A stretch of DNA of 64,000 nt, taken from an uncultured Alphaproteobacteria bacterium. GTDB lineage: Bacteria > Pseudomonadota > Alphaproteobacteria > HIMB59 > GCA-002718135. The position numbers and the translations under genes were made by a program. The stretch is taken from assembly GCA_902616075.1 (NCBI GenBank), contig CACMRK010000004.1, positions 22,346 to 86,345 of the forward strand, in the 5' to 3' direction. The notes beneath the pieces are model-generated. The model worked only from the letters and a program-made list of their open reading frames with translations. It did no database searches and was not told the DNA's origin. Shown piece after piece: positions 38,112 to 58,614 of the stretch; within the stretch, counting starts at the first letter, position 1, and each line of letters begins with the position of its first letter.

Positions 38112-39002
38112 ATGAATAATGAAGTAATAATTTCGTGTGCTGTAACTGGATCAGGAGATACAGCAGGCAAACATCCTGAATTACCTATAACACCAAAACA
38201 AATTGCTGATGCTTCAATTGAAGCTGCCAAAGCGGGTGCAGCAATAGCTCATTTACATGTAAGGGAACCTGATGGCAAACCTTCTAGAAATTTAAGTTAT
38301 TATAAAGAAGTGGCAGATAGAATTCGCTCTTCTGATACTGATGTAGTTTTAAATTTTACTACAGGTATGGGTGGTGATTTTGAAGTTGGAACAGGTAAAG
38401 ATCCTTTAAATCCCGTGGGAGCAAATACAGATATGATCGATGCATTAAGCAGATTAGAACATGTTGAAGAGTTATTGCCAGAAATTTGTACTTTAGACTG
38501 CGGATCACTAAATTTTGGTGACTCAAACATGACATTTATTCATACACCGATACAACTAAGAACTGCAGCAAAAAAAATGCAGGAGCTTGGAGTGAAACCA
38601 GAAATGGAAGCTTTTGAAATGGGTCATTTATGGTTTGCTAACCAACTTTATAAAGAAGGTTTAATTGATGGTCCTCCTTTTTATCAAATATGCCTTGGCA
38701 TACCTTGGGGATCACCTGCAACAACGAGCGCAATGAAAGCAATGGCTGAAATGGTACCTACTGAAGGTATTTGGTCTGGATTTGGAATAGGAAGATCACA
38801 AATGCCCATGGCTGCACAAGCAGTTATTTTAGGAGGAAATGTTCGTGTGGGACTTGAAGATAATCTTTATTTAAAGAAAGGAGTTTTTGCATCAAATGCA
38901 CAGTTAGTTGAAAAAGCAAGATGCATTGTTGAAGATATGGGGGCTTCTATTTTATCCCCTCAACAGACTAGAGAGAAATTAAAACTAAAAAAACATTTTT
39001 AA
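38112..39002 (+). CDS. BKACE (DUF849) family beta-keto acid cleavage enzyme, dehydrocarnitine-cleaving type by context
   Basis: BKACE pattern [10 protein letters not shown]...[27 protein letters not shown]...NFTTGMGG. It lies 1 nt upstream of a carnitine-dehydrogenase-like gene. Confidence 0.7.
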
Positions 39003-39003
39003 T

Positions 39004-39924: not shown

Positions 39925-39926
39925 TT

Positions 39927-46965: not shown

Positions 46966-47872
46966 CTTTTAATCCGCTAGTAATGTAAAGATACCAATCA
47001 ACAACAAAATTAATTGATACACAAAGCAAAGCAATTGCAGCAGCTGGAATTAATGGTGTTAAACCTGCTGTTATATCATATTGTGCATATTGAATAAGTA
47101 TTGCATTTTCCCTCACCATTGATGCCCAATCTGCTGAAGGGGGTTGAATTCCAATTCCTAAAAAACTTAAACTAGATATTGTAAAAATTATAAATATGAA
47201 CCTTAAACCAAACTCAATAATCAAAGGTGAAGCTATATTAGGAAGTATTTCTCTGAAAATAATATATGATAAATTTTCACCTCTTAGCCTCGCGACCTCA
47301 ACATATTCTAGAACAACTTGACCAACAGCAACTGATCTTGATATTCTAAAAAATCTAGTTGATTCCAAAATTCCTAAAATGACAATTAAATTAAAATTAG
47401 TAGGTCCAAAAACTGATAAAAGTATAAATGTAAAAATCATTACAGGTATAGCCATAAGCGTGTCTACTATTCTACTTAATAGTTGATCTAAATACCTTCT
47501 ATCCAAAGCAGCTATAATTCCAAATACTGTTCCAATTCCTAAAGCAATAAAAGTAGCCAATAAACAAATACCAATTGTATTTCTTGCAGCATAGATAATG
47601 CGAGAAAAAATATCTCTTCCAATTTGATCAGTACCAAATATATGGCCATCACCCCAAGGAGCATAAGCTACTGGGAATATTTCTGCTTCTCCATGTGGAG
47701 CAATTAAGGGAGCAAATATTGCAGCAAAAAAATATATGAATAGTACAATCATACCAAACCAAGCTGAGATTGGAGCTTTTGATAAGGCAATTTTTAATCT
47801 TTCTAATCTAGTTCTTCTTTTGATTAAATTTGCAACTTCACTTTTTGCAGAATAAGATAAATTTTCGCTCAT
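46952..47872 (-). CDS. ABC transporter permease (DppC/OppC-like)
   Basis: Six TM segments. N-terminal extension followed by the GTDQIGRDIFSRIIYAARN motif typical of the DppC family. Confidence 0.85.
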   Translation of the reverse strand: MSENLSYSAKSEVANLIKRRTRLERLKIALSKAPISAWFGMIVLFIYFFAAIFAPLIAPHGEAEIFPVAYAPWGDGHIFGTDQIGRDIFSRIIYAARNTIGICLLATFIALGIGTVFGIIAALDRRYLDQLLSRIVDTLMAIPVMIFTFILLSVFGPTNFNLIVILGILESTRFFRISRSVAVGQVVLEYVEVARLRGENLSYIIFREILPNIASPLIIEFGLRFIFIIFTISSLSFLGIGIQPPSADWASMVRENAILIQYAQYDITAGLTPLIPAAAIALLCVSINFVVDWYLYITSGLKDDVK

Positions 47873-48867
47873 TTTGGGTATAGTAACCTTGGGTTAGAAA
47901 TAATGCCGATCAAGTCAGCAATTAAATTTAATATTACATATGTTGATGCAAAAATTAATGCACAAGCTTGAACAACAGGTAAATCTCGATTATAGACTGA
48001 TCCGACCATCAACCTACCAATACCTTGATAGTTAAAAACATATTCAACAACAACTGAGCCAATCAACATATAAGCTAAGTTTATTGCAATTACTTGAGAA
48101 ATAGGTGCCCAAGCATTTGGAAGTGCATGTTTAACAATTACCTCGTATCTAGAAGCTCCCGATAATTTTGCCATTTCAATATATTCACTTGATAAGATAT
48201 TTATTATCGCTGACCTTGTCATTCTCATCATGTGACCCATAGTAATTAATGTCAAAGTAAAAACTGGAAGAGCAGTCCTGTAAAATCTTTCAGCCAAAGT
48301 TGAAGCTTCATCCACATTAGAAATAGTTGGAAAAACTGGAAACAGTGTCGCTAGTAAAAGAATAAAAATATAGGCTGTAAAAAATTCTGGTGAAGATACG
48401 GTTACTAAGCTAACTCCAGTTGCTGACCTATCATAATAAGAGTTTCTGTATAATGCTGCTGAAATACCTAAGATTAAAGATAGAGGAATAGCCAACATGG
48501 CGGCAACCCCTGTTAAAAATAATGTATTCTTTAATCTGGGTACAATTAAACCAACAACTTCTCTGGACCTATCACCTTGATCCCCTTGAACTTTAGATCT
48601 TCCAGAGAAAGAACTACCAAAATCTCCTTGAAAAACATTTCCTAACCAATCAAAATATCTTGTGACTGGAGGTTTATCTAAACCCAATTCTGCTCTTAGA
48701 GCTTTTACTGCAGATTTTGTTGCACTTTGACCTAATATTTCCGTAGCAAAGTCTCCCGGTAAAAAAGAGAATGTACTAAATATTATTACCGAAAATGCAA
48801 AAACTGTAACGAGACCAAGACTAAGCCTTAACAAAATTGTTCTAAATATTGGATGAATTCTAGTAAT
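47869..48867 (-). CDS. ABC transporter permease (DppB/OppB-like); probable non-canonical ATT start
   Basis: The track ORF starts at TTG 48834, but the frame stays open upstream to 48891. A strong SD, AAGGAGG (48879-48873), lies 5 nt before ATT 48867-48865. A DppB-like N-terminus (…IFRTILLRLSLGLV) would be truncated by the TTG start. Confidence 0.7.
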   Translation of the reverse strand: MTRIHPIFRTILLRLSLGLVTVFAFSVIIFSTFSFLPGDFATEILGQSATKSAVKALRAELGLDKPPVTRYFDWLGNVFQGDFGSSFSGRSKVQGDQGDRSREVVGLIVPRLKNTLFLTGVAAMLAIPLSLILGISAALYRNSYYDRSATGVSLVTVSSPEFFTAYIFILLLATLFPVFPTISNVDEASTLAERFYRTALPVFTLTLITMGHMMRMTRSAIINILSSEYIEMAKLSGASRYEVIVKHALPNAWAPISQVIAINLAYMLIGSVVVEYVFNYQGIGRLMVGSVYNRDLPVVQACALIFASTYVILNLIADLIGIISNPRLLYPK

Positions 48868-49009
48868 ATTACCCTCCTTAAAGATACAATCTTAATTCTT
48901 AAAGTTTTGTCTAAATTAGGTCAACATGTAAGCTAAAATTAATAATTTATACGTTGAATTAAAACGTTATATATGTTTTTATATATTAACTTAAGTTTGT
49001 TTTTTGTTA

Positions 49010-49023
49010 AATTTCTAGAAATT
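49010..49023. promoter_or_regulatory. perfect 14-bp palindrome AATTTCTAGAAATT in the divergent transporter control region
   Basis: Read directly from the sequence. It lies 46 nt upstream of the SBP ATG (49069). Confidence 0.3.
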
Positions 49024-49025
49024 AT

Positions 49026-49050
49026 GAACAAAAATCTTAGGTTTTTGTTC
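49026..49050 (+). promoter_or_regulatory. 5'-UTR hairpin immediately upstream of the SBP Shine-Dalgarno
   Basis: GAACAAAAAT (49026-49035) pairs with GTTTTTGTTC (49041-49050) as 9 Watson-Crick pairs plus 1 G:U, with a 5-nt loop. The SD GGGAGG follows at 49059-49064. Confidence 0.4.
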
Positions 49051-49068
49051 AAGTATAAGGGAGGACAA

Positions 49069-50697
49069 ATGAAAAATAAGAAAATAGACAAATACATTGA
49101 AGAACAGTCTTCAAAGCTAACAAAAGGGCTTATTGATAGAAGACAGTTTATGATGTCTGTCCTTGCTACTGGGGTCACGCTTCCAATTGCATTATCATTA
49201 GCAGATAAAGCAGTTGCAGCTACACCAAAAAAAGGTGGACATTTAAGATGGGGTAATAGTGCAGCAGATGCAACTGATACTCTTGATCCAGCAACTTATC
49301 AGAGCTCATTTATGCAAGCTACTGCTTGGTCATATCAGAACTGTCTAACTGTTGTTGATTCTGATCACACAATTGTTGGAGAGCTTGCTGAGTCAATTGA
49401 ATCAGATGATGCTCAAACTTGGGTATATAATCTTCGCAAAGGTGTTGAATTCCATAATGGTAAATCAATGACAGCAGAAGATGTTGTGCTCAACTACCAG
49501 TATCATATGAATCCAGATACTGCTTCGGCAGCAGGCGGACTGTTATCTCAAATTGAGACAGTTTCTGCTGATGGAAATGACAGAGTTATTTTTAAGCTAA
49601 AAGGTGCAAATGCCGATTGGCCTGCAATAACTACTGACTATCATATTATGATTAAACCAACAAAAGATGGAGTTGTTGATGCTCAATCAACGATTGGAAC
49701 TGGTCCATATATTATGGATGAATTCAATCCTGGTGTTGGTGCAAAATTTGGAAAAAGAAATCCAAATTATTTCAAAGGTGATAGTGTTGCACACTTTGAT
49801 TCAGTTGAAGTAATTGGTATTAATGATCCTGCTACTAGACAAGCAGCATTATTAAACGGTGAAATTGATTGGATGAATGGTGTTGATCTTAGAACTGCTA
49901 ATCTATTAACTAGAAATCCTAGTGTAGAAATTACAGCAGCTTCTGGTTACGCTCACTATACAGCTCCAATGCGATTGAACGTTCCACCGTTTGATAACTT
50001 TGATGTACGTATGGCAATGAAGTTTGCAATTAAAAGACAGGAAATTGTTGATAAGATTATGCTTGGATATGGTACTGTTGGTAATGATCATCCGATCTCT
50101 ACTGCTCACCCATATCACAATAGCGCTTTAGAGCAGAGAGAGTTTGATGCTGATAAAGCTGCATATCACTGGAAAAAATCTGGTGTAAGTGGACCAATTG
50201 AAATTAGTACTTCAGAGGTTCCTTATGCAGGATGTACAGATGCAACAAACTTGATTGCAGCATCTGCCCAAGAATGTGGTATCGATCTTAGAGTTAAAAA
50301 AGAGCCTGAAGATGGTTACTGGAGTAACGTATGGAACACAAAAGGTTTCAGTATGAGTTCTTGGGGTGGAAGACCTACAGAGGATATGATGTGGTCTGCT
50401 GCATTCACAGATGACACTGAATGGAACGAAGCTGCATGGGGTAATCTAGTTCAAACTGATTCAACTGTTCGTTTCAATGAACTTGTTAGATCTGCTAGAT
50501 CAGAACTTGATGCAGAAAAAAGAAAATCAATGTACTGGGAAGCACAAGCACTTTGTAACTACGATGGTGGTGCAATTGTTTATGCATTTAACCAATACGT
50601 TGGTGCTGGTTCTAAAAAACTTGCTCACGGTGAAGATGTTGCTGGTAACTGGGAAAGTGACGGTAACAAACTTTCTGAACGTTGGTGGTTTGCATAA
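49069..50697 (+). CDS. ABC transporter substrate-binding protein, family 5 (DppA/OppA-like) with twin-arginine signal peptide
   Basis: I place the start at ATG 49069 (SD GGGAGG 4 nt upstream) rather than the track's 48973. Tat motif DRRQFMMSVLATGVTLPIALSLADKAVA|A. Family-5 SBP body. Visibly higher G+C and codon bias than its neighbours. Confidence 0.85.
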   Translation: MKNKKIDKYIEEQSSKLTKGLIDRRQFMMSVLATGVTLPIALSLADKAVAATPKKGGHLRWGNSAADATDTLDPATYQSSFMQATAWSYQNCLTVVDSDHTIVGELAESIESDDAQTWVYNLRKGVEFHNGKSMTAEDVVLNYQYHMNPDTASAAGGLLSQIETVSADGNDRVIFKLKGANADWPAITTDYHIMIKPTKDGVVDAQSTIGTGPYIMDEFNPGVGAKFGKRNPNYFKGDSVAHFDSVEVIGINDPATRQAALLNGEIDWMNGVDLRTANLLTRNPSVEITAASGYAHYTAPMRLNVPPFDNFDVRMAMKFAIKRQEIVDKIMLGYGTVGNDHPISTAHPYHNSALEQREFDADKAAYHWKKSGVSGPIEISTSEVPYAGCTDATNLIAASAQECGIDLRVKKEPEDGYWSNVWNTKGFSMSSWGGRPTEDMMWSAAFTDDTEWNEAAWGNLVQTDSTVRFNELVRSARSELDAEKRKSMYWEAQALCNYDGGAIVYAFNQYVGAGSKKLAHGEDVAGNWESDGNKLSERWWFA

Positions 50698-50713
50698 AAT
50701 ATTAATTTTCTTT

Positions 50714-50735
50714 GTGGCGCATTTAAATGCGCCAC
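50714..50735 (+). terminator. GC-rich hairpin (terminator/attenuator) after the SBP gene
   Basis: The 22-nt perfect palindrome GTGGCGCATTTAAATGCGCCAC sits 16 nt after the SBP stop, followed by a T-containing tract (ACTATTTCT). The next gene starts 26 nt downstream. Confidence 0.65.
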
Positions 50736-50761
50736 ACTATTTCTACTAATCTTCCAAAAAA

Positions 50762-51685
50762 ATGTTTTTAAAAAATAAGAAATACCTCTTTGATGGAGGT
50801 TCCGGTCAAACTTTAATGGAGATGGGTTTAGAGACAACAGGCGATCTTTGGTCAGCACAAGCTTTATTAAATGAAAATAATCACCAAATGGTCTTAGAAA
50901 TGCATAAAAATTTTATAAATGCTGGATCACAATTAATAGTCACTTCAAATTTTAGTGTTAGAAGGAGGCTATTAAAAAAATATAATTTACTTGATAAATT
51001 TGAATTTGGAATAAGATCTGCTGGATCACTAGCATTAAAAGCAAAAAATGAAAGTGATAAAAAAGTTATTGTTGCTGGCTCATTGCCAAATCAAGGTAAT
51101 ACATATTCCCCAATACATTTTGAAACTGATGAAACAATGTTTAATTATTTTCATGAAATTGCAAAAATATTAAATGATTATGTCGATATATTTTACTTAG
51201 ATGTTTTGTGTTCCATCAAAGAAATAAAAATTGCTCTAGAAGCTTCAAAAGAATTTAATAAACAAGTTCTTGTAGGTGTACACTTACGTTATGATGGAAA
51301 ATTACCATCTGGAGAAAGTCTTGATGAACTTTTTGAAACTATTCAAAAATTTAATTGTTGCGGCATAGTATCAGCCTGTGTATCGCCTGAAATTGTTAAT
51401 TTGAGTATTCCTATATTTAATAAACAAAAGCTTCCTTTTGGTTATAAAATGAATTTATTTAAAGAACTGCCTACTAGTAATAAAGAAAAATTTAATTCAG
51501 AGGGCTTTGAAGGACATTATGATTATATTGATCCCGTTGAGTTACTTGGAACTCGAAATGAAGAATTTGGAGAAGATAAATATAAAAAGTTTGTTTTAAA
51601 ATCTTTAAATGAAGGTGTTACTCTAGTTGGTGGATGCTGTGAAGTGAAGCCACGACATATTGAAGCTATTAAGAATTTATTTTAA
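50762..51685 (+). CDS. homocysteine S-methyltransferase family protein (BHMT/MmuM-like)
   Basis: Pfam S-methyl_trans pattern, including an N-terminal LFDGGSGQTL and the C-terminal zinc-ligand GGCCEVKPRHI. Confidence 0.75.
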   Translation: MFLKNKKYLFDGGSGQTLMEMGLETTGDLWSAQALLNENNHQMVLEMHKNFINAGSQLIVTSNFSVRRRLLKKYNLLDKFEFGIRSAGSLALKAKNESDKKVIVAGSLPNQGNTYSPIHFETDETMFNYFHEIAKILNDYVDIFYLDVLCSIKEIKIALEASKEFNKQVLVGVHLRYDGKLPSGESLDELFETIQKFNCCGIVSACVSPEIVNLSIPIFNKQKLPFGYKMNLFKELPTSNKEKFNSEGFEGHYDYIDPVELLGTRNEEFGEDKYKKFVLKSLNEGVTLVGGCCEVKPRHIEAIKNLF

Positions 51686-51726
51686 AATTTTTTTTTCATT
51701 ATTTTGTGATAAGTTGAATAAATTTT

Positions 51727-52956
51727 ATGGGAGATTTAATTAGTAATTACAGATTTGTCGTTAAGCCAGTTATTAAGGAAACTGGTAGATCTTTGGATTT
51801 GGCTAGGCCCATGAAAATACATCCTCTCACTTATCAAGAGTTACCACTCAACCCAGAATATACTAACTACGCCGATGGAAGATTTACGCTTGAAAAATTA
51901 TCTCATGCTACAGCAGATGAAATGTATTGGAAAGCTAGACAAGAAATAATTTTAAGACATACGGGCGAGCATCCATACGAAATTTCTGGTCCGGATGCTG
52001 AAAATTTACTTCAACAAATATTTCCTAGAGATATTTCAAAAGTAAAAATAGGACGATGTTCTTATCAATTTGCTTGTTATCATGATGGAGGAATGATTTC
52101 AGATGGATTATTATTAAGACTAGAAAAAAATAAATTTTGGTTTGCACAAGGTGATGGACATTTATACAGTTGGTACAAAGCTCATTCGAAAAATTTAGAT
52201 GTTGAAATTAAAGATCCAAATGTTTGGGTAAGTCAAATACAAGGACCTAAATCTCTAAAATTGTTAGAGAAACTAATTGATCAACCATTAAAAAATAATT
52301 TTAATTACTTTGATTGGATTGAAACTTCAATTGCTTCAGAAAAAGTAATTATAAGTAGAACAGGGTTTACGAATGAACTAGGTTGGGAAATTTATTTAAG
52401 GCCAGAAAATAATTCCAAAAAAATTGGGGACTTAATACTCAGTAAGGGTGAAGAAATGGGAATGATCCTAACAGCCTCTCCAGGGTTTAGATGTAGAAGA
52501 ATTGAGGCAGGTCTCTTATCTGCAGGGAGAGATTTTACAAGAGACAGATCTCCATTTGCTGTTGGATTAGGAAAATTTATAGATTTTAATAAGGGAGATT
52601 TTATTGGAAGAGATTATTTACTAAATACAAGCAAAGATTGTTTAACATGGGGTATGAGAGTGGAAAATAGTTTTGCATTGGTTGATTCTGAAATTTCTAT
52701 TAATAATAAAAAAGTTGGAATTGTAACTTCAAGTACATGGTCGCCATTTCAAGTTTGTGGTGTTGCTATAGTTCATATGGATAAAGCAGAATTTGGACCA
52801 GATACAATAGTAGATGTTAGATGCGATGATGGTACTTTACAAAAAGGTGAAATATGTACTTTACCAATGTATGATGAGAAAGGAGAAATACAAAGAGGTT
52901 TAAAAGAAAATATTCCATCTAGCCCTATACCTTGGAAGGGTATTTCAAAAAACTAA
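51727..52956 (+). CDS. GcvT-family (aminomethyltransferase fold) protein, LigM/DesA-like putative THF-dependent demethylase
   Basis: 409 aa with GcvT-fold motifs (ISGPDAENLL, VSQIQGPKS, ISRTGFTNELGWEIY, RIEAGLLSAGRDF). The N-terminal PEYTNY...W region resembles LigM-type demethylases, from my recollection. Confidence 0.6.
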   Translation: MGDLISNYRFVVKPVIKETGRSLDLARPMKIHPLTYQELPLNPEYTNYADGRFTLEKLSHATADEMYWKARQEIILRHTGEHPYEISGPDAENLLQQIFPRDISKVKIGRCSYQFACYHDGGMISDGLLLRLEKNKFWFAQGDGHLYSWYKAHSKNLDVEIKDPNVWVSQIQGPKSLKLLEKLIDQPLKNNFNYFDWIETSIASEKVIISRTGFTNELGWEIYLRPENNSKKIGDLILSKGEEMGMILTASPGFRCRRIEAGLLSAGRDFTRDRSPFAVGLGKFIDFNKGDFIGRDYLLNTSKDCLTWGMRVENSFALVDSEISINNKKVGIVTSSTWSPFQVCGVAIVHMDKAEFGPDTIVDVRCDDGTLQKGEICTLPMYDEKGEIQRGLKENIPSSPIPWKGISKN

Positions 52957-53004: not shown

Positions 53005-54168
53005 ATGAATGATCTCATTAAACCTAGCAATAAAATCCATACAATAGATGATGCAATAAGATTATCTAAAAAAAGATTACCAAAATTAGTCTTTGACTTT
53101 ATTGATGGAGCATCAGGAGATGACAAACTTGCAGAAATTAATAGTACAGCATTAGATCAAATTAGACTTGAGCCTAAGGTTTTTAGAAATGTTGAGAATA
53201 GAAATTTAAGTAAAAAAATATTTGATTTTCATTTTGATTATCCATTTGGATTTGCACCAATGGGAATGACAAATCTTTCATGGCCTGATGCAGATAAAAT
53301 GATAGCAAAAGAAAGTGCGTATAATAATATTCCAACATGTGTTTCAATGGCTTCTAGTACTACGTTAGAAGATATGTTTACTTTTTCAGAAGGTCATTCG
53401 TGGATGCAAATATATATTTTTCAAAGTGAAGAATTTATTATGGAATTATTAAAAAGAGCAGAAAGTATTGGATACAAGGTCTTGATCCTCACTGTTGATG
53501 TTCCAATTCTTTCAAGAAGAGCTAGAGATGATAGAAATGGCTTTGGTTATCCATTTAAAATTGGCCCAAAACAATTTTTAGATTTTGCACTACATCCTCA
53601 ATGGAGTTTAACAACTTTGTTTAAAGGCGCTCCACAACCAATGAATTATGTTACCTCTAAAAGTGGTGATCAAATTTTTAGACGAAAAGAAAGTAGAGGA
53701 GCAACTGATTGGAGTACTCTAAAAAGGGTTCGAGAGGCTTGGAAAGGAAAATTAATAATCAAAGGAGTAATGAATTCTGAAGATGCTTTGAAAATTAAAG
53801 AGGCTGGTGCTGATGCAATTCAAGTATCAAATCATGGTGGAAGGCAATTAGATAGTGCTACTGCTTCTATTAATGCTTTGCCATTAATACGAAAAGCTTT
53901 GGGAGACGATTTTCCAATACTTTTTGATAGTGGCATTAGAAGTGGTAGTGATATTTTACGAGCATTAGCTCTGGGAGCTAACTTTGTTATGTTTGGCAGA
54001 CCTTTAATGTATGCTATTGGAGCAGATGGTGCAAGAGGTCTTAGAAGAATCATTAACCTAATTAAAGAAGAGTTAAGTACAAATCTTGGCTTAGTGGGAT
54101 TAACCGATATAAATGAAGTTGATAAAAAAATTATAGCAGAGAAATTTTTTAAGGATATAAAGTACTAA
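53005..54168 (+). CDS. FMN-dependent alpha-hydroxy acid dehydrogenase/oxidase (LldD/glycolate oxidase/MdlB family)
   Basis: TIM-barrel FMN motifs (LTVDVPILSRRARD, SNHGGRQLD, GIRSGSDILRALALGA). Confidence 0.85.
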   Translation: MNDLIKPSNKIHTIDDAIRLSKKRLPKLVFDFIDGASGDDKLAEINSTALDQIRLEPKVFRNVENRNLSKKIFDFHFDYPFGFAPMGMTNLSWPDADKMIAKESAYNNIPTCVSMASSTTLEDMFTFSEGHSWMQIYIFQSEEFIMELLKRAESIGYKVLILTVDVPILSRRARDDRNGFGYPFKIGPKQFLDFALHPQWSLTTLFKGAPQPMNYVTSKSGDQIFRRKESRGATDWSTLKRVREAWKGKLIIKGVMNSEDALKIKEAGADAIQVSNHGGRQLDSATASINALPLIRKALGDDFPILFDSGIRSGSDILRALALGANFVMFGRPLMYAIGADGARGLRRIINLIKEELSTNLGLVGLTDINEVDKKIIAEKFFKDIKY

Positions 54169-54169
54169 G

Positions 54170-55912
54170 ATGGGAGATAAAAAGATTAGAGGTGGGGCAT
54201 TAGTTGCAAGAGCTCTTAGAGACAAAGGTATTGATAATGTTTTTACACTTTCTGGAGGTTTTTGTAATCCGGCACTTGAAGGATTTATGGAGTGTCAAAT
54301 TAATGTAATTAATTGTCCTCATGAACAAATTGCTGGTCATTTAGCTGATGGTCATACCAGAATATCAAGAAAACCATCCGTTTGTATTGTGGGGCCCGAA
54401 GGTTTTGCAAATGCAGTACCCTCAATGATGGAAGCTTGGGGTGAAAGATCACCTGTTATTTTTATAACTGGATCAAGTAGTTTAAAAAGACAAGGAGCAG
54501 GCGGTTTTAAGGAAATAGATGATGTATCTATTGCAGCACCGTTAACAAAATACAGTGCAAGTATAACAGATGGCAACAGAATAAGAGAGTTCGTAGATAA
54601 AGCATATAGAATTGCAACAAATGGCTATCCTGGTGCAGTACATTTAAGTGTACCAGTAGATATAATGTTTTCATCATTTGCAGATGATGCAGGTTTAGAA
54701 GAAAGACCTTTTACTCATCAAAAGAAACCTTTAGCAAAAGCTTGGCCTGATCCTGAGAGTTTAAATGAAATATTTGATCTAGCAATTAGTGCACAAAAAC
54801 CTGTTTTTATAGGAGGGCATGGAGTTTGGTGGTCTAGTGCGGAACAAAAATTAGAACAAGCTGGGTTTGAATTAAATATTCCAATATTTAATATACCATA
54901 CCACCAAAAACTTTTAGGTGAAGAGGCAAATACATATATGGGTCTTGCAGATATTCATCAATACCCTCCATCAAAAATGGCTCTTCATGAATCAGATTTG
55001 GTTCTTATGATTGGTGCACGTCTTGATAATCAAATGAATTTTGGTAATCCTCCACTTTTTCCAAAAAGCACAAAGCTTGTTTGTATTAATGGATCACATG
55101 AAGAAATAGAATTAAATAGAGCTGCAGATATTAATTTACTTTGTGACCCTGGAGTCTTTTTGGATAAACTCTTAGAATTAAAGAAAAATAGTAAATGGAA
55201 ATTAAATAATGAATGGTTTGATAAGAATAAAAAAGAGAAAAAAAATTGGATTGATAAAACATTAGATGATTTAAATAAAGAAACTGAAGAGGCTAAAAAA
55301 AAAGGTGGAAAAATTCATCCTCTTCAGTTAGCTTTAGATGTTCAAGAAGTATTAACTGAAAATGATTGGTTAGTTATTGATGGTGGAAACACACATTTCT
55401 GGTCTGAGATTGCAATTAATATTGCTGGATCAAAAGGTAAAAAACTTGGAGGAATATTACATCCAGGTACTTTTAGTATGTTAGGTGTTGGAGTTCCTTT
55501 TGCAGTATCAGCGAAAAATCTTAATCCTAAATCTAATGTTGTTTTAATAAGTGGAGATGGTGCATTTTTATCTGGCGGATTATCAATTGAAGCTGCATTT
55601 CAAGAAAAAAAACCTATTGTTGTAGTTATCGATAACAATGGAGGTCTTGACTGTATTTCTCAACAACAAGAAAGGTTGTTTGAAAGTGGGAAACACTTTG
55701 CAACTGATTTTAGAGATATTCCATTTCATTCAATTTTTGAGGGTTTTGGAGGACATGGAGAATTAGTTACTAAAAGAGAAGATTTAGGCCCCGCTTTAAA
55801 AAGAGCGTTAAAAAGTGGTAAAACTGCATGTGTAAATGTTAAGGCTAAAGGTGTTATAAGTCCAATAGTTGCTGCAGTTAGTGATAAAAGAGATAAAGCG
55901 TCTATAGAGTAG
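54170..55912 (+). CDS. thiamine-diphosphate-dependent enzyme (ALS/BFD/Oxc superfamily; 2-oxoacid decarboxylase or 2-hydroxyacyl-CoA lyase-like)
   Basis: N-terminal PYR domain with catalytic HEQ, a GGFKEID motif, and the ThDP-binding motif GDGAFLSGG...NNGG. Starts 1 nt after the FMN enzyme gene. Confidence 0.8.
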   Translation: MGDKKIRGGALVARALRDKGIDNVFTLSGGFCNPALEGFMECQINVINCPHEQIAGHLADGHTRISRKPSVCIVGPEGFANAVPSMMEAWGERSPVIFITGSSSLKRQGAGGFKEIDDVSIAAPLTKYSASITDGNRIREFVDKAYRIATNGYPGAVHLSVPVDIMFSSFADDAGLEERPFTHQKKPLAKAWPDPESLNEIFDLAISAQKPVFIGGHGVWWSSAEQKLEQAGFELNIPIFNIPYHQKLLGEEANTYMGLADIHQYPPSKMALHESDLVLMIGARLDNQMNFGNPPLFPKSTKLVCINGSHEEIELNRAADINLLCDPGVFLDKLLELKKNSKWKLNNEWFDKNKKEKKNWIDKTLDDLNKETEEAKKKGGKIHPLQLALDVQEVLTENDWLVIDGGNTHFWSEIAINIAGSKGKKLGGILHPGTFSMLGVGVPFAVSAKNLNPKSNVVLISGDGAFLSGGLSIEAAFQEKKPIVVVIDNNGGLDCISQQQERLFESGKHFATDFRDIPFHSIFEGFGGHGELVTKREDLGPALKRALKSGKTACVNVKAKGVISPIVAAVSDKRDKASIE

Positions 55913-55915
55913 GTT

Positions 55916-56251
55916 ATGGCAATTTTTTCTACACATTTACTAAACTCAATAGATGGCACGCATGCGAGTGATGTAGAAATTGTTATTTATAAAGTAAATA
56001 ATAATAACAAAGTTGTATTTCTAGAAGATAAAACAGATAGTTCTGGAAGAATGCTTAAAGAATTTGAATTAACGAAAGAAGATTGTGAAAGTGATTATGA
56101 AATGATAATTAATTCTGGTAAATATTTTAGAAATACTAGTGAAATAATTAATTCAATCAGTGTTAAATTTAAAATGAAAGATCCTCTTAAAAAATATCAC
56201 ATACCTTTAATTGTTTCTCCAAATGGATACTCAATATGGTGGTCTAAATAA
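55916..56251 (+). CDS. transthyretin-like protein (HIU-hydrolase fold) lacking the C-terminal YRGS signature
   Basis: 111 aa aligning to the HIUase pattern: STHLLN (cf. THILD), SSGR (cf. DGR) and KYHIPLIVSPNGY (cf. HYHIPLLLSPFGY). It ends in SIWWSK instead of (T/V)YRGS. Confidence 0.7.
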   Translation: MAIFSTHLLNSIDGTHASDVEIVIYKVNNNNKVVFLEDKTDSSGRMLKEFELTKEDCESDYEMIINSGKYFRNTSEIINSISVKFKMKDPLKKYHIPLIVSPNGYSIWWSK

Positions 56252-56252
56252 A

Positions 56253-57374
56253 ATGAGTAATTCAGGATTAAACATGTCTAGACGCATTAGGAGGACTCCC
56301 TATACCGAGAAAGTAATTGAGGCTGGTGTAAGTGGTTTTACTGTAGTTAATCATATGCTTCTTCCAAAATCATATAAAGCAACAGTTGAAGAAGATTATT
56401 GGCACTTATCTAAAAATACTCAAATTTGGGATGTTTCATGTCAACGACAGGTTCAAATAATAGGAGAAGATGCTACAGAATTAATACAACTCATGTCTCC
56501 AAGGTCAATAAAAGATATGCCTATTGGTAAATGTTACTATTATCCAATGATAGATGAAAATGCAGGGATGATAAATGATCCTGTACTTTTAAAATTAAGT
56601 GAAAATAAATATTGGCTATCAGTTGCAGATTCAGATGTCCTTCTTTGGTCAAAAGGATTGGCTGTAGGAAGAAATTTTAAAGTTGATATTATAGAGCCAG
56701 ATATTTATCCCTTAGCAATTCAAGGTCCAAAATCTGAAAAATTAATGTCATCAATATTTGGAGAAAAAATTAAAAAATTAAAATTCTTTCATTTTTCTTT
56801 TTTTGAATTTGAAGGAACAAAACAGATAATTGCAAGATCAGGATATAGCAAACAAGATGGTTTTGAGATTTACCTTAAAGGTTTTAGTTTAGGAAAAAAA
56901 CTTTGGGAAACTATTTGGGAAGCAGGAAAAGATTTTAATATTTCACCTGGATGTCCAAATTTAATTGATAGAATAGAAGGTGGTTTATTATCCTATGGTA
57001 ATGAATTTACTTTAGAAAATAATCCAATTGAATGTGGATTTGATAATTATTGTAACAATTTATCTCATGATTTCATTGGAAAAAATGCATTAAAAAAAAT
57101 ATTAAAAAATGGAATAGAAAAAAAAATAAAAGGAATTACTTTTGATGGGTCCCCGACTCCTTCGTGTACAATACCTTTTCCTGTATACTCAAAAAATAGA
57201 TTTCAAATTGGTAATATCACCTCTGGTATTTATTCACCATTTTTAAAAACCAATATTGGGCTATCAATGGTTGATAGAGACTATTGGAATGATGGGCAGG
57301 ATGTTATCGTATTAACACCAGACAACATTGAGAGAAAAGGTAAAGTGTGCTCACTACCTTTTAATTATTCTTAA
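56253..57374 (+). CDS. dmdA: DMSP demethylase-like GcvT-family protein (DmdA-like)
   Basis: Start set at ATG 56253 (MSNSGLNMSRRIRRTPYT), 1 nt after the previous stop. DmdA-like blocks from my recollection of SAR11 DmdA are NHMLLP, EEDYWHL, QIWDVSCQRQVQIIG, GKCYYYPMIDENAGMINDPVLLKL, ARSGYSKQDGFEIY and PGCPNLIDRIEGGLLSYGNEF. Confidence 0.65.
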   Translation: MSNSGLNMSRRIRRTPYTEKVIEAGVSGFTVVNHMLLPKSYKATVEEDYWHLSKNTQIWDVSCQRQVQIIGEDATELIQLMSPRSIKDMPIGKCYYYPMIDENAGMINDPVLLKLSENKYWLSVADSDVLLWSKGLAVGRNFKVDIIEPDIYPLAIQGPKSEKLMSSIFGEKIKKLKFFHFSFFEFEGTKQIIARSGYSKQDGFEIYLKGFSLGKKLWETIWEAGKDFNISPGCPNLIDRIEGGLLSYGNEFTLENNPIECGFDNYCNNLSHDFIGKNALKKILKNGIEKKIKGITFDGSPTPSCTIPFPVYSKNRFQIGNITSGIYSPFLKTNIGLSMVDRDYWNDGQDVIVLTPDNIERKGKVCSLPFNYS

Positions 57375-57375: not shown

Positions 57376-57822
57376 ATGAGTCATTCAATCGAATTAAAGT
57401 GGGAATTAGGAGATCAAAAACTCGAATTTGGAAAATACTTAACTGATCACACAGTAATGCTTAATGAAAATGTATCTATTGATGCAGGATCATCTCCAGA
57501 TTATGGAGGAAGCGAAACTAATATTAATCCAGAGCAAAAACTAGCTGCAGCTGTAAGTAGTTGTTTTATGATGACGTTTTTAGCTTTAGCTGCAAAAATG
57601 AAATGGCCAGTTATTAATTACAAAGATAAAGCAATTTCGTATTTAGGAAAAAATGCAGAGGGGAGAATGTACGTTAACAAAATAGAGCTAAATCCAGCTA
57701 TAGTATTTGAAGATAATTTTAATATTTCTGATGAAGAAATGAAAAAGATGAAAGAGAGATCACATAAGTATTGTTTTATAGCTAATTCACTATCCAAAGA
57801 TGTTGAAATTCAAATCAATTAA
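57376..57822 (+). CDS. OsmC/Ohr family protein
   Basis: Start set at ATG 57376 (MSHSIELKW). OsmC-fold pattern with two Cys (AAVSSCFMMTF, HKYCFIANS). Confidence 0.7.
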   Translation: MSHSIELKWELGDQKLEFGKYLTDHTVMLNENVSIDAGSSPDYGGSETNINPEQKLAAAVSSCFMMTFLALAAKMKWPVINYKDKAISYLGKNAEGRMYVNKIELNPAIVFEDNFNISDEEMKKMKERSHKYCFIANSLSKDVEIQIN

Positions 57823-58614
57823 ATGAATTTTAATCTAATATTAAACGAAAAAAATAATAATATTTTTAATATTATTCTTAATGACCAGAGAAACCAAAAT
57901 ACTTTAAGCGAAAACATGATCAATGAATTAACATCAGCACTAGACATCGCTGATAAAGATAATGATGTAAAAGTAATTATTTTATCATCAAACGGTAATA
58001 TTTTTTGTGCAGGACATAATTTAAAAGATTTAAATTCACAAAGATTGCAAAATGACAAAGGTGAAAGCTATTTTAAAAAAATATTTCAAATGTGCTCTCA
58101 ACTTATGCTGAAAATTAATAAAAATAATAAACCAGTTATAGCTATGGTTGATGGTATTGCTACTGCAGCAGGCTGTCAGTTAATTTCTAGCTGTGATTTA
58201 GCTTACTCAAGTAACAGAGCAAAATACGCAACCCCTGGTGTTAATATTGGATTATTTTGTTCTACACCAATGGTTCCATTATCAAGAACTGTAGGGAAAA
58301 AGCAAGCAATGGAAATGCTTCTCACTGGAGATCTTATAGATGCAAATAAAGCATTAAGGATTGGTTTAATAAATGATGTCTTTGAAGAAGATAGTTTAAA
58401 AGAAAATGTATTTCAAATTGCTAAAAAAATATCATCTAAATCTTCTAATACTATTAAAATTGGTAAAGAAGCTTTTTACAAACAAAAAGATATGAATTTA
58501 GAAGATGCATATACTTTTACTTCAAATGTAATGACGGAAAATATGCTAAATGATGATTCCAAGGAAGGTATTGAAGCTTTTTTAGAAAAAAGAGAGCCAA
58601 ACTGGAAAGAATAA
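57823..58614 (+). CDS. enoyl-CoA hydratase/isomerase (crotonase) family protein, ECHDC3-like
   Basis: Crotonase motifs (FCAGHNLKDL, VIAMVDGIATAAGCQL, EGIEAFLEKREPNW). It has 0 nt spacing to the OsmC-like gene. Confidence 0.8.
   Translation: MNFNLILNEKNNNIFNIILNDQRNQNTLSENMINELTSALDIADKDNDVKVIILSSNGNIFCAGHNLKDLNSQRLQNDKGESYFKKIFQMCSQLMLKINKNNKPVIAMVDGIATAAGCQLISSCDLAYSSNRAKYATPGVNIGLFCSTPMVPLSRTVGKKQAMEMLLTGDLIDANKALRIGLINDVFEEDSLKENVFQIAKKISSKSSNTIKIGKEAFYKQKDMNLEDAYTFTSNVMTENMLNDDSKEGIEAFLEKREPNWKE

What the first reader, a model, noticed from the sequence alone, without database searches (positions are those of the whole stretch)
55916..56251. Transthyretin-like protein with the diagnostic YRGS C-terminus replaced by WWSK, outside any purine-catabolic context
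Seen: the 111-aa protein keeps the HIU-hydrolase fold landmarks. These are STHLLN near the N-terminus, an SGR arginine and KYHIPLIVSPNGY. It ends ...YSIWWSK.

Established: bacterial 5-hydroxyisourate hydrolases end in a strictly conserved Y-R-G-S tetrapeptide that contributes to the active site. They normally sit with uricase, OHCU decarboxylase or allantoinase genes.

Seen: none of those genes is in this window. Instead the gene is wedged, with 3-nt and 1-nt spacers, between a ThDP enzyme and a DmdA-like gene.

Inference: this is a neofunctionalised TLP, either a new hydrolase specificity or a ligand-binding subunit.
Basis: partly seen in the sequence, partly recalled or inferred. Interest (0 to 1): 0.55.

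Follow-up and report, generated by a model that had tools for sequence, protein, structure and literature searches.

The report
Transthyretin-like partner of a thiamine enzyme
This small gene is a real, conserved offshoot of the urate-pathway enzyme 5-hydroxyisourate hydrolase that has lost that enzyme's signature tail; in bacteria from SAR11 to Chloroflexota it always follows one particular thiamine-dependent enzyme gene, usually beside a DMSP-demethylase-type gene, and its job is unknown.

Summary
The ORF at 55916-56251 encodes a 111-aa protein of the transthyretin/HIUase fold. It keeps His7, Arg45 and His95, but ends in WWSK instead of YRGS.

This is not a frameshift. The tail W-(W/hydrophobic)-S is conserved in hundreds of relatives. 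The clade is monophyletic and under purifying selection (dN/dS about 0.17). It scores below NCBI's HIUase cut-off (70.6 bits against 87.45).

No purine-catabolic gene was found anywhere in the 64-kb window.

The main new finding is genetic coupling:
- In 150 of 151 loci with room upstream, the gene lies directly downstream of one ThDP enzyme. The one exception is an IS-disrupted locus that keeps a ThDP remnant.
- That ThDP enzyme is 67-71% identical from SAR11 to Chloroflexota.
- The two genes often show translational coupling.
- Most loci form a module FMN 2-hydroxy-acid oxidase, ThDP enzyme, TLP, DmdA-family demethylase. This holds in SAR11, Beta- and Gammaproteobacteria, a Rhodobacteraceae MAG and Chloroflexota.

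Best reading: a neofunctionalised, probably still catalytic, partner of the ThDP enzyme in a one-carbon-shortening route for a 2-hydroxy or 2-oxo acid, linked to DmdA. The substrate is unknown.

One paper noted in passing a "second HIU homolog with a different function" in SAR11. I found no characterisation.

Verdict: a new variant of a known kind, and moderately to highly interesting.

The parts
55916..56251 (+). Transthyretin-like protein (TLP) of the W-x-S clade, 111 aa. It keeps His7, Arg45 and His95, has His16 in place of the HIUase/TTR proline, and ends in WWSK.
   Evidence: ORF. Pfam PF00576, 70.7 bits. TIGR02962, 70.6 bits, below the 87.45 cut-off. Fold confirmed. Clade conservation.
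54170..55912 (+). ThDP-dependent enzyme, 580 aa, of the ALS/HACL/OXC/benzaldehyde-lyase superfamily. It is the invariant upstream partner of the TLP. It has the HEQ catalytic Glu and a GDG...NN ThDP motif, and its C-terminal tail DKRDKASIE is conserved across phyla.
   Evidence: Three TPP_enzyme domains. No NCBIfam model reaches its cut-off. Best PDB matches are HACL/OXC at 190 bits and BAL at 161 bits. 67-71% identical to the orthologues in Rhodoferax, a gammaproteobacterium, Chloroflexota and Boseongicola. Upstream of the TLP in 78/78 and 72/73 loci.
53005..54168 (+). FMN-dependent 2-hydroxy-acid oxidase/dehydrogenase, 387 aa, like lactate oxidase or mandelate dehydrogenase. It is the first gene of the core module.
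   Evidence: PF01070, 397 bits. PDB matches: L-lactate oxidase and (S)-mandelate dehydrogenase. Present in 72/72 SAR11 loci and 37/55 other loci.
56253..57374 (+). DmdA-family THF-dependent (S-)methyltransferase, 373 aa. It starts 1 nt after the TLP stop codon.
   Evidence: NF009133, 531.6 bits against a cut-off of 410. 404 bits to 3TFH. Downstream of the TLP in 79/79 SAR11 loci and 59/71 others. The cassette homologues in other classes also pass the cut-off, at 542-568 bits.
57376..58614 (+). OsmC-like peroxiredoxin (57376-57822) and enoyl-CoA hydratase (57823-58614). These are lineage-specific downstream genes of the same strand run.
   Evidence: PF02566 and PF00378/NF006008. Conserved only in the window's own SAR11 subclade.
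45352..52956 (.). Variable upstream accessory genes. Dpp/Opp-type ABC transporter (45352-48834, minus strand), SBP_5 binding protein (48973-50697), homocysteine S-methyltransferase (50762-51685) and a 409-aa DmdA paralogue (51727-52956).
   Evidence: Pfam and NCBIfam. SBP_5 and ABC permeases are among the most frequent neighbours of the module in other lineages too.

Best explanation
The gene encodes a cytoplasmic protein of the transthyretin/HIUase fold, presumably homotetrameric. It belongs to a distinct, ancient paralogue clade (the 'W-x-S TLPs'), and I read it as not being a 5-hydroxyisourate hydrolase.

Its function is tied to one specific, very highly conserved ThDP-dependent enzyme encoded immediately upstream. 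The two genes are often translationally coupled.

The usual module is FMN 2-hydroxy-acid oxidase, ThDP enzyme, TLP, DmdA-family methyltransferase. In some soil loci a TauD-type dioxygenase lies in the upstream cluster and no FMN-oxidase gene was detected. The module looks like a one-carbon-shortening route: 2-hydroxy acid to 2-oxo acid to C-C cleavage by ThDP. This is the logic of the mandelate pathway or of alpha-oxidation. Its product or substrate would be handled by the DmdA-type demethylase, which suggests a methylated onium carboxylate related to DMSP.

Within that route the TLP most likely remains catalytic. It keeps the HIUase His-Arg-His constellation that binds and activates an oxyanionic substrate. 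The Tyr-Arg-Gly-Ser lid is replaced by Trp-(Trp/hydrophobic)-Ser, and a new His16 appears. This would re-shape the inter-subunit pocket for a non-purine intermediate of the ThDP reaction, for example by ring-opening, hydrolysis or protection of a labile 2-oxo-acid or aldehyde species.

Shown: the fold, the retained and lost residues, clade monophyly, purifying selection, gene coupling and the absence of purine genes.

Inferred: tetramer formation, catalysis, the nature of the pathway and the substrate.
For: **Fold and residues**
- PF00576 E=1.9e-19. TM 0.85 to E. coli TRP and to HIUases.
- His7, Gly14, Gly44, His95 and Pro97 are invariant across relatives only 27-50% identical, and Arg45 is nearly so (96-100%). 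Position 108 is Trp in 91-100% and Ser110 is present in 78-100%. Position 16 is His where HIUases have Pro in 100%.

**Not HIUase**
- TIGR02962 scores 70.6 bits, below the 87.45 cut-off.
- YRGS is absent in the whole clade.
- The clade is monophyletic with the tail columns left out.
- There are no purine-catabolism genes in 64 kb.
- The literature notes that SAR11 and SAR116 carry such a second homologue even in genomes without purine genes (PMC11698098).

**Real and constrained**
- dN/dS is about 0.17, and the stop codon is fixed in 79/79 alleles.

**Coupling**
- The ThDP gene is directly upstream in 78/78 SAR11 loci and 72/73 other loci.
- The same four-gene order occurs in Rhodoferax, a gammaproteobacterium, Chloroflexota, Boseongicola and many freshwater and marine metagenome contigs.
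- The gap between the ThDP gene and the TLP is 3 nt in the window. The two genes overlap by 1 nt (TGATG) in L083 and L086.
- ThDP is 67-71% identical across phyla, against 26-39% for the TLP.

**Pathway logic**
- The FMN enzyme is closest to lactate oxidase and mandelate dehydrogenase.
- The ThDP enzyme is closest to HACL, OXC and benzaldehyde lyase.
- The cassette GcvT homologues all exceed the DmdA cut-off.
- Frequent neighbours are carboxylate or peptide transporters (SBP_5, TctC, TRAP), S51 peptidase and LysR.
- The window region is rich in genes for onium-compound catabolism.
Against: - No biochemical datum exists for any member of this clade, for the partner ThDP enzyme or for this FMN enzyme.
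- Retention of His, Arg and His is also compatible with pure ligand binding.
- The TLP evolves much faster than the ThDP enzyme, which would be unusual for a strictly co-adapted catalytic pair.
- About 15% of non-SAR11 loci lack DmdA and about a third lack the FMN enzyme, so the 'pathway' is not uniform.
- The module is common in freshwater and soil bacteria, where DMSP-type substrates are not known to be abundant.
- The cassette DmdA is only about 55-60% identical (my estimate; about 400 bits) to the crystallised P. ubique DmdA (PDB 3TFH). I recall, but did not check here, that this enzyme was biochemically verified. The cassette protein's substrate is therefore inferred.
- The converse test could not be run: whether the ThDP orthologue ever occurs without the TLP.
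- Tetramer geometry and the position of the two Trp residues in the pocket were not modelled.
Confidence: 0.5

Rival explanations
1. Non-catalytic small subunit or ligand-sensing partner of the ThDP enzyme. The TLP tetramer binds the large ThDP protein, or binds a metabolite, and activates, stabilises or regulates it. This would resemble the way AHAS small subunits (IlvN/IlvH) serve acetolactate synthase large subunits. Alternatively it carries or sequesters a reactive or hydrophobic intermediate, as transthyretin carries thyroxine.
For: - There is an obligate gene pair, with the small gene immediately 3' of a large ALS-superfamily gene and start and stop codons overlapping or nearly so.
- The catalytic YRGS lid of HIUase is lost.
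- The family has precedent for turning an enzyme into a binding protein. PDB entries of HIUase Y116T/I16A mutants bound to T4 appear among the fold matches.
- The C-terminal tail of the ThDP enzyme is invariant and could be a docking element.
Against: - His7, Arg45 and His95 stay invariant or nearly so at 26-40% overall identity.
- From memory, not checked here: when HIUase became the non-enzymatic transthyretin, these residues were replaced.
- No fusion of the ThDP enzyme and the TLP was seen among 150 representatives.
- No interaction data exist.
Confidence: 0.27
2. It is still a 5-hydroxyisourate hydrolase, or acts on a closely related oxidised purine or ureide, with an unusual C-terminus. 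The operon position would then be incidental.
For: - The fold and the His-Arg-His residues of HIUase are retained.
- NCBI and JGI pipelines name clade members 'hydroxyisourate hydrolase'.
- Some SAR11 do catabolise purines (PMC11698098).
Against: - The whole clade lacks YRGS. The Tyr and the C-terminal Ser of that motif belong to the HIUase active site (established knowledge), and here the Tyr position is Trp in 91-100% of members.
- It scores below the TIGR02962 cut-off.
- It forms a clade separate from YRGS proteins.
- It was never found next to uricase or OHCU decarboxylase in the roughly 170 loci examined, and always next to the ThDP gene.
- SAR11 genomes with a purine operon carry a separate canonical homologue, and the second copy also occurs in genomes with no purine genes.
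Confidence: 0.06
3. Folate- or pterin-directed helper of DmdA. The TLP would act on an oxidised or bridgehead-hydroxylated folate by-product, such as 4a-hydroxy-5-methyl-THF, which is chemically analogous to 5-hydroxyisourate. It would thereby protect the THF pool during methyl transfer.
For: - There is only a 1-nt spacer to dmdA in the window, and a DmdA-family gene lies downstream in 79/79 SAR11 loci and 59/71 other loci.
- An OsmC peroxiredoxin lies next to dmdA here.
- Roseobacter dmdEF genes link DMSP demethylation to oxidative stress (PMC12992908).
- The substrate analogy itself is inference only.
Against: - The invariant partner is the ThDP enzyme, not DmdA. 12 of 71 non-SAR11 loci keep ThDP-TLP without DmdA.
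- From memory: characterised DmdA enzymes work in vitro without such a protein, and R. pomeroyi dmdA has no TLP neighbour. One search shows that the dmdA-acuI operon there has dmdR upstream.
Confidence: 0.07

Closest known systems
5-hydroxyisourate hydrolase (HiuH/UraH/PucM/YedX; TIGR02962; PDB 2G2N, 2IGL, 2H0E, 3QVA, 8UW4)
   Same: Same fold: TM 0.80-0.86 and 19-30% identity. Same length. The N-terminal S/T-H-x-L motif, the G-R arginine and the Y-H-x-P-L histidine strand are conserved.
   Different: - The C-terminal Y-R-G-S is replaced by W-(W/x)-S-x, often with an extension.
- G-x-P-A becomes G-x-H-A, and T-N-x-x-G-R becomes T-D-x-x-G-R.
- It scores below the equivalog cut-off.
- It forms a separate clade.
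- It is cytoplasmic: the first strand starts at residue 2, so there is no signal peptide.
- Its genomic partner is a ThDP enzyme rather than uricase or OHCU decarboxylase.
Vertebrate transthyretin
   Same: Another neofunctionalised descendant of HIUase, in which changes at the C-terminal and channel residues altered the pocket. The position that is Trp108 here corresponds to zebrafish HIUase Tyr116, and Y116T mutants of that enzyme, one bound to T4, appear among the fold matches (PDB 3IWV, 3Q1E).
   Different: - From memory, transthyretin lost the His/Arg/His catalytic residues and opened the channel. The W-x-S clade keeps them and puts a bulkier Trp at that position.
- Transthyretin is a secreted carrier. 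This protein is bacterial, cytoplasmic and encoded in an operon with metabolic enzymes.
'Second 5-hydroxyisourate lyase homolog' of SAR11 and SAR116, noted by Braakman et al., Sci Adv 2025 (PMC11698098, Methods)
   Same: Very probably the same gene family. It is annotated as HIU hydrolase or lyase, lies outside the purine operon, has low similarity to the operon copy, and is present in genomes without purine genes.
   Different: That paper only excluded it from its tally. It describes no motif, partner gene, wider distribution or function.
Mandelate pathway MdlB-MdlC, and alpha-oxidation (PhyH-HACL1)
   Same: An FMN-dependent 2-hydroxy-acid dehydrogenase followed by a ThDP enzyme that breaks the C1-C2 bond. 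In some soil loci a TauD-type Fe/2-oxoglutarate dioxygenase lies upstream of an HACL-like ThDP enzyme..
   Different: - Neither known pathway contains a protein of the transthyretin fold or a THF-dependent methyltransferase.
- The enzymes here are only about 30% identical to MdlB, BAL and HACL (my estimate from the bit scores).
- No CoA ligase or transferase is part of the core module.
AHAS regulatory small subunit (IlvN/IlvH)
   Same: A small protein encoded directly 3' of a large ThDP subunit of the ALS superfamily. It is offered only as a possible functional analogy.
   Different: It has an unrelated fold (ACT domain). No evidence of physical interaction was obtained here.

Membership tests
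Pfam PF00576 HIUase/Transthyretin superfamily | Match to the family HMM above the gathering score | tested here: met
   70.7 bits against a cut-off of 25.3, E=1.9e-19, covering residues 5-108.
Pfam PF00576 HIUase/Transthyretin superfamily | Eight-stranded beta-sandwich fold of TTR/HIUase | tested here: met
   AF2 model with pLDDT 91.3. Foldseek TM 0.85-0.86 to 2igl and 2g2n, and 0.79-0.84 to human TTR.
5-hydroxyisourate hydrolase (TIGR02962 equivalog) | Score at or above the curated equivalog cut-off | tested here: not met
   70.6 bits against a cut-off of 87.45, and NF011610 at 51.4 bits against 217. The Rhodoferax clade member has no NCBIfam hit at E<=1e-20.
5-hydroxyisourate hydrolase (TIGR02962 equivalog) | C-terminal Y-R-G-S tetrapeptide, whose Tyr and terminal Ser lie in the active site | tested here: not met
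   The protein ends in WWSK. 114 of the 120 closest relatives end in WWS plus one residue. All 88 full-length clade representatives lack YRGS, whereas the 14 HIUases in the same search have Y-[RH]-G-[SN].
5-hydroxyisourate hydrolase (TIGR02962 equivalog) | Catalytic His (N-terminal strand), Arg (G-R) and His (Y-H-x-P) | tested here: met
   His7, Arg45 and His95 align with the E. coli, Salmonella and B. subtilis enzymes. The two His are invariant in the clade and Arg45 is present in 96-100%.
5-hydroxyisourate hydrolase (TIGR02962 equivalog) | G-x-P-A motif after the first strand | tested here: not met
   Position 16 is His here (GTHA). It is His in 70-89% of the clade and Pro in 100% of the YRGS sequences.
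5-hydroxyisourate hydrolase (TIGR02962 equivalog) | Genomic association with uricase, OHCU decarboxylase or allantoin genes | tested here: not met
   None in the 64-kb window. None among the top recurrent neighbour families in about 170 related loci.
5-hydroxyisourate hydrolase (TIGR02962 equivalog) | Hydrolysis of 5-hydroxyisourate to OHCU | not testable with these tools
   Requires an enzyme assay, following decay of uricase-generated HIU.
W-x-S transthyretin-like clade (proposed here) | C-terminal [YC]-[ST]-x-W-[W/hydrophobic]-S with a variable end, monophyletic apart from the tail | tested here: met
   Y105-S106-I-W108-W109-S110-K. The NJ tree without the tail columns groups 88 such sequences apart from 14 YRGS sequences.
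W-x-S transthyretin-like clade (proposed here) | Encoded immediately downstream of the conserved ThDP enzyme orthologue | tested here: met
   3-nt spacer in the window. 78/78 SAR11 loci and 72/73 other loci.
DmdA (NF009133 equivalog), for the downstream gene | Score above the curated cut-off and similarity to the crystallised P. ubique DmdA (3TFH) | tested here: met
   531.6 bits against 410. 404 bits to 3TFH. DMSP demethylation by this cassette clade itself has not been tested.

The most novel reading that the evidence does not exclude
The ThDP enzyme and the W-x-S TLP, fed by the FMN 2-hydroxy-acid oxidase, would form a so far unrecognised, widely distributed pathway that shortens a sulfonium (or other onium) 2-hydroxy acid by one carbon. 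An example is 4-dimethylsulfonio-2-hydroxybutyrate, or the 2-oxo acid derived from S-methylmethionine. The product would go to the DmdA-type demethylase.

The TLP would then be a new enzyme activity on the transthyretin fold. It would use the retained His-Arg-His site for the carboxylate or oxyanion, and the paired C-terminal Trp residues of adjacent subunits as a cation-pi pocket for the sulfonium head group, to process or protect the labile 2-oxo-acid or aldehyde intermediate.

This would mean that the 'dmdA operon' of the ocean's most abundant bacteria handles DMSP precursors or analogues, and not only DMSP.
Probability: 0.12. Interest if true: 0.85.

Novelty: new variant of a known kind. 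Interest (0 to 1): 0.62.

Why it matters
- **Relevance to the sulfur cycle.** dmdA is the key gene that diverts marine DMSP away from the climate-active gas DMS, and SAR11 carries most of the ocean's copies. In SAR11, and also in freshwater, soil and other marine lineages, a DmdA-family gene sits in a deeply conserved operon with an FMN oxidase, an exceptionally conserved ThDP enzyme and a re-tooled transthyretin-fold protein. This suggests that the pathway around DmdA is incompletely understood.
- **Testable candidates.** The module provides four concrete, clonable candidates for missing steps in organosulfur or onium-compound catabolism.
- **Annotation error.** These proteins are widely annotated as 'hydroxyisourate hydrolase', and the partner enzyme as 'acetolactate synthase'. 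This inflates predictions of purine catabolism and branched-chain amino-acid synthesis in metagenomes.
- **Protein evolution.** This would be a second, independent neofunctionalisation of HIUase besides vertebrate transthyretin.

Tried and rejected
1. **Frameshift or sequencing artefact at the 3' end: rejected.** The tail and the stop position are identical in 79/79 SAR11 alleles with synonymous variation around them. The other two reading frames do not encode YRGS (read).
2. **Hidden purine-catabolism context: rejected.** A Pfam scan of every ORF of 100 aa or more in the window found none.
3. **SAR11-specific oddity: rejected.** The clade and the cassette occur in Beta- and Gammaproteobacteria, Rhodobacteraceae and Chloroflexota, and in lake, soil and marine metagenomes.
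4. **Residue 109 (W, L, A, M, F or V) tracking the presence of DmdA or the FMN oxidase:** no pattern was seen, and many contigs are truncated.
5. **Natural fusions of the TLP with ThDP or DmdA:** none among the 150 best representatives. The longer hits are OHCU-decarboxylase/HIUase fusions ending in YRGS, N-terminal mis-calls, or an unrelated C-terminal extension.
6. **Converse test (ThDP orthologue without a TLP):** the last homology search returned only near-identical SAR11 sequences and gave no answer. PLSDB plasmids contain neither the ThDP orthologue nor a W-x-S TLP.
7. **Literature:**
   - No open-access paper links transthyretin or HIUase with dmdA or DMSP.
   - Gonzalez et al. 2019 (ISME J), cited for dmdA being part of 'a conserved operon', is not held and could not be read.
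   - The Roseobacter dmdR and dmdEF genes are different genes.
   - From the abstract listed, the known DMSHB-to-DMSP enzyme is part of the bifunctional DsyGD. I recall it as a cupin, unrelated to these proteins.
8. **First metagenome scan:** the scan with the diverse 81-sequence alignment failed for lack of a conserved stretch. It was repeated with a tighter alignment.
Full report
**1. The observation**

The ORF at 55916-56251 (+) is exactly as described. It runs from ATG to TAA and encodes 111 aa. It contains STHLLN (5-10), SGR (43-45) and KYHIPLIVSPNGY (93-105), and it ends in YSIWWSK. It starts 3 nt after the stop of a 580-aa ThDP enzyme gene (54170-55912) and ends 1 nt before the ATG of a GcvT-family gene (56253-57374).

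It is a genuine member of the transthyretin/HIUase superfamily:
- Pfam PF00576 gives 70.7 bits, E=1.9e-19.
- The best PDB sequence hits are the E. coli, Salmonella and B. subtilis transthyretin-related proteins and HIUases, E=6e-11 to 3e-8.
- An AlphaFold model has pLDDT 91.3. It superposes on E. coli YedX/TRP at TM 0.85-0.86, on other HIUases, and then on transthyretins.

The HMMER alignments show that His7, Arg45, His95, Tyr105 and Ser106 align with the conserved HIUase residues. The YRGS tetrapeptide is replaced by W108-W109-S110-K111. The protein falls below NCBI's curated HIUase equivalog cut-off, with TIGR02962 at 70.6 bits against 87.45.

**2. Not an artefact, and not a strain peculiarity**

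- Of the 120 closest database relatives, 114 end in WWS followed by K, Q, D, E, N or R. This holds down to 54% identity.
- In 79 SAR11 genomic loci, the two TGG codons and the TAA stop are at the same position in every case. Codons 104-107 and 110 vary synonymously, and the last residue varies (K, N, D or E).
- dN/dS among close alleles is about 0.17.
- The alternative reading frames of the 3' end do not encode YRGS.

**3. A large, distinct clade**

A profile search of 1.84 billion representative proteins found 1063 relatives at E up to 1e-3, and 182 at E up to 1e-10. Among 94 full-length representatives:
- 51 carry WWS.
- 37 carry other non-YRGS tails, mostly W-x-S variants such as WLS, WAS, WMS, WCS, WVS and WFS, often followed by a short extension.
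- Only 6 are YRGS HIUases.

Across this clade (27-50% identity), His7, Gly14, Gly44, His95 and Pro97 are invariant and Arg45 is nearly so (96-100%). Trp108 is present in 91-100% and Ser110 in 78-100%.

Clade-specific differences from HIUase also include His16 (G-T-H-A, where HIUases and transthyretin have G-x-P-A) and Asp41 (T-D-x-x-G-R against T-N-x-x-G-R).

I built a neighbour-joining tree after removing the C-terminal columns. It places all 88 non-YRGS sequences in one clade, separate from 14 YRGS sequences. Mean identity is 33% within the clade and 26% between the two groups.

Annotation pipelines call these proteins 'hydroxyisourate hydrolase' in Rhodoferax, Aquabacterium, Burkholderiales, Chloroflexota, Arenicellales, other Gammaproteobacteria and Boseongicola.

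**4. Context in the window**

I scanned every ORF of 100 aa or more against Pfam. There is no uricase, OHCU decarboxylase, allantoinase, allantoicase or xanthine dehydrogenase.

The gene lies in a run on one strand:
- SBP_5 binding protein (48973)
- homocysteine S-methyltransferase (50762)
- a 409-aa DmdA paralogue (51727)
- FMN-dependent 2-hydroxy-acid oxidase/dehydrogenase (53005)
- ThDP enzyme (54170)
- TLP (55916)
- DmdA-family protein (56253)
- OsmC-like protein (57376)
- enoyl-CoA hydratase (57823)

The DmdA-family protein scores 531.6 bits against the NF009133 cut-off of 410, and 404 bits to the P. ubique DmdA structure 3TFH.

The wider region (38-64 kb) is rich in genes typical of onium and osmolyte catabolism. 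These include BKACE plus a 3-hydroxyacyl-CoA-dehydrogenase-like gene, two GMC oxidoreductases, an aldehyde dehydrogenase and a Dpp-type ABC transporter.

**5. The key result: an obligate gene pair and a conserved module**

A scan of one genome per GTDB species found 201 species encoding a relative. The 80 best are all SAR11 (Pelagibacterales) SAGs, MAGs and isolates.

In those loci the order FMN oxidase, ThDP enzyme, TLP, DmdA is present wherever the contig is long enough. The counts are ThDP 78/78, DmdA 79/79 and FMN enzyme 72/72. This includes lineages whose TLP is only 53-65% identical. The outer flanks differ between lineages.

Outside SAR11 the same four-gene order occurs in:
- a Rhodoferax MAG
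- an unnamed 4.7-Mb assembled contig
- a complete gammaproteobacterial chromosome (CP070646)
- a Chloroflexota MAG
- a Boseongicola (Rhodobacteraceae) MAG
- dozens of lake, soil and marine metagenome contigs

Over these non-SAR11 loci:
- The ThDP gene is directly upstream of the TLP in 72 of 73 loci. The single exception is an IS-disrupted locus that still keeps a ThDP C-terminal remnant.
- A DmdA-family gene follows within 400 nt in 52 of 71 loci, and within 1.6 kb in 59 of 71. In the latter cases a TctC receptor gene is sometimes inserted.
- The FMN enzyme is present in 37 of 55 loci.

Variants exist without the FMN enzyme (LysR, ThDP, TLP, DmdA). Others have TauD-type dioxygenases instead and no DmdA: TauD, ThDP, TLP, sulfatase, or ADH, TauD, TctC, ThDP, TLP, TctC, amidohydrolase.

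The invariant partner is therefore the ThDP enzyme, not DmdA.

An unbiased clustering of all neighbouring ORFs ranks the families as follows: ThDP (88 loci), TLP, GcvT/DmdA (76), FMN enzyme (56), Peptidase_S51 (29), SBP_5 (27) with ABC permeases, LysR (17) and thiolase (16).

**6. Properties of the partners**

*ThDP enzyme*
- It has all three TPP_enzyme domains, the HEQ catalytic glutamate and a GDG...NN ThDP motif (read from the translation).
- It reaches no NCBIfam cut-off.
- It is closest to 2-hydroxyacyl-CoA lyase and oxalyl-CoA decarboxylase (190 bits), benzaldehyde lyase (161 bits) and acetolactate synthases.
- It is strikingly conserved: 67-71% identity between SAR11 and the beta-, gammaproteobacterial, Chloroflexota and Rhodobacteraceae versions.
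- Over the same genome pairs, the FMN enzyme is 46-50% identical, DmdA 49-60% and the TLP 26-39%.
- Its C-terminal tail ...DKRDKASIE is the same across phyla.
- The TLP start codon overlaps its stop codon (TGATG) in two lineages, and follows within 3-13 nt in most others.

*FMN enzyme*
- It is closest to L-lactate oxidase, (S)-mandelate dehydrogenase, 4-hydroxymandelate oxidase and glycolate oxidase.

*Cassette GcvT homologues*
- Those of Rhodoferax, the gammaproteobacterium, Boseongicola and others all exceed the DmdA equivalog cut-off, at 542-568 bits.
- However, both the window's DmdA and that of Pelagibacter sp. HIMB1695 score only about 400 bits against the crystallised HTCC1062 enzyme. 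I estimate that as 55-60% identity.
- DMSP demethylation by the cassette-type clade is therefore an inference.

**7. How it most likely works**

*Shown:* a protein of the TTR fold, constrained by selection, that keeps the polar HIUase triad but has a different pocket lid and a new His. It is always co-encoded with one ThDP enzyme. It usually sits between an FMN 2-hydroxy-acid oxidase and a THF-dependent methyltransferase. Neighbouring transporters are typical of carboxylates or peptides.

*Inferred:*
- The combination of FMN enzyme and ThDP enzyme resembles the mandelate pathway: 2-hydroxy acid to 2-oxo acid to aldehyde plus CO2.
- The TauD plus HACL-like variant resembles alpha-oxidation.
- Both shorten a carboxylic acid by one carbon.
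- The association with DmdA suggests that the shortened product (or the substrate) is a methyl-sulfonium or other onium carboxylate related to DMSP.
- An obvious but untested candidate is 4-dimethylsulfonio-2-hydroxybutyrate, or its 2-oxo acid.

From memory (not checked here), His, Arg and His were lost when HIUase became the non-catalytic transthyretin. The same residues remain invariant or nearly so in this clade at 26-40% identity. I therefore favour a still-catalytic TLP acting on a labile intermediate of the ThDP step. It might perform hydrolysis or ring-opening of a cyclised 2-oxo acid, or process a reactive aldehyde. The Trp-Trp tail would re-shape the inter-subunit pocket, possibly as a cation-pi site. 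The last point is speculative.

The main rival is a non-catalytic small subunit or ligand-binding partner of the ThDP enzyme, analogous to AHAS small subunits. I cannot exclude it. A residual HIUase function is unlikely. A folate-repair role tied to DmdA is disfavoured, because ThDP-TLP pairs persist without DmdA.

**8. Comparison with what is known**

The closest family is HIUase, but two of its defining sequence features were tested and not met, as was the curated score. It should therefore not be filed as HIUase. It is a member of the PF00576 superfamily.

Braakman et al. (Sci Adv 2025, PMC11698098) state in their Methods that many SAR11 and SAR116 genomes carry a second homologue annotated as 5-hydroxyisourate lyase. 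It lies elsewhere in the genome, has low similarity to the operon copy, and is present in genomes lacking purine genes. [quoted passage not shown] That is independent support, and also the only mention I found.

Searches combining transthyretin or HIUase with dmdA, DMSP or SAR11, or with HTCC1062 locus tags, gave nothing else. Gonzalez et al. 2019, cited for dmdA being 'part of a conserved operon', could not be read. The operon may therefore have been partly described there.

**9. Verdict**

The feature is a new, uncharacterised variant (a paralogue clade) of a known protein family. The added and more interesting point is that it is the obligate genetic partner of an exceptionally conserved ThDP enzyme, in a cross-phylum module that includes the SAR11 DmdA-type gene. 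The function remains unknown, and the mechanistic proposals are ranked hypotheses. Interest: 0.62.

Noticed in passing
window 54170-55912 (and L076, L081, L083-L086, L088): The ThDP enzyme upstream of the TLP is 67-71% identical from SAR11 to Chloroflexota, and its C-terminal tail (...DKRDKASIE) is the same across phyla. Yet it reaches no NCBIfam cut-off and is named 'acetolactate synthase' by pipelines. It is probably a distinct, uncharacterised ThDP enzyme family.
   Followed up: partly
window 51727-52956: A 409-aa GcvT-family protein scores 180 bits to both the DmdA and the TMAO-demethylase models, below both cut-offs. It is conserved upstream of the cassette in most SAR11 loci at 62-65% identity. 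It is a second, uncharacterised THF-dependent (de)methylase next to a homocysteine S-methyltransferase (50762-51685).
   Followed up: partly
window 56253-57374; L076 10345-11463: The cassette-type DmdA of this window and of Pelagibacter sp. HIMB1695 scores only about 400 bits (about 55-60% identity by my estimate) to the crystallised HTCC1062 DmdA (3TFH). It is about as distant from that enzyme as from the Rhodoferax cassette protein. SAR11 may therefore carry distinct DmdA clades, and the cassette clade's substrate is unverified.
   Followed up: partly
window 37602-42374: This stretch holds a thioesterase, a BKACE (beta-keto acid cleavage enzyme), a 3-hydroxyacyl-CoA-dehydrogenase-like gene, a zinc ADH-like gene and an ScfR-type regulator. 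It looks like a carnitine-type catabolic cluster. It adjoins two GMC oxidoreductases (42683-44284 and 60144-61781) and an aldehyde dehydrogenase (58622-60094). Together they form an 'onium-compound island' around the cassette.
   Followed up: no
L076 6409-7092; L081 2294-3004; about 29 loci: A Peptidase_S51 gene (dipeptidase E / cyanophycinase family), often with LysR and an SBP_5 ABC transporter, recurs just upstream of the FMN-ThDP-TLP-DmdA module. It is seen in SAR11 lineages distant from the window's subclade and in freshwater betaproteobacteria. This hints that the imported substrate may be peptide-like or amide-linked.
   Followed up: partly
L088 (contig ctg321467); L096-L103 (soil metagenomes): Variant modules lack both the FMN oxidase and DmdA. 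They combine ThDP-TLP with TauD-family dioxygenases, a sulfatase, TctC receptors and an amidohydrolase. The pair appears to have been recruited to other substrates.
   Followed up: partly
window 28564-37009: A polyamine-type cluster: DAO oxidoreductase, a glutamine-synthetase-like gene (gamma-glutamyl-polyamine synthetase type), a PotABCD-like ABC transporter, a carbon-nitrogen hydrolase and an agmatine deiminase-family (PAD_porph) gene. It is ordinary but complete.
   Followed up: no
window 54170-56251: In this window the ThDP gene and the TLP gene are in the same reading frame, separated only by TAG GTT. In other lineages they overlap out of frame (TGATG), so stop-codon read-through is not a conserved feature.
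   Followed up: yes
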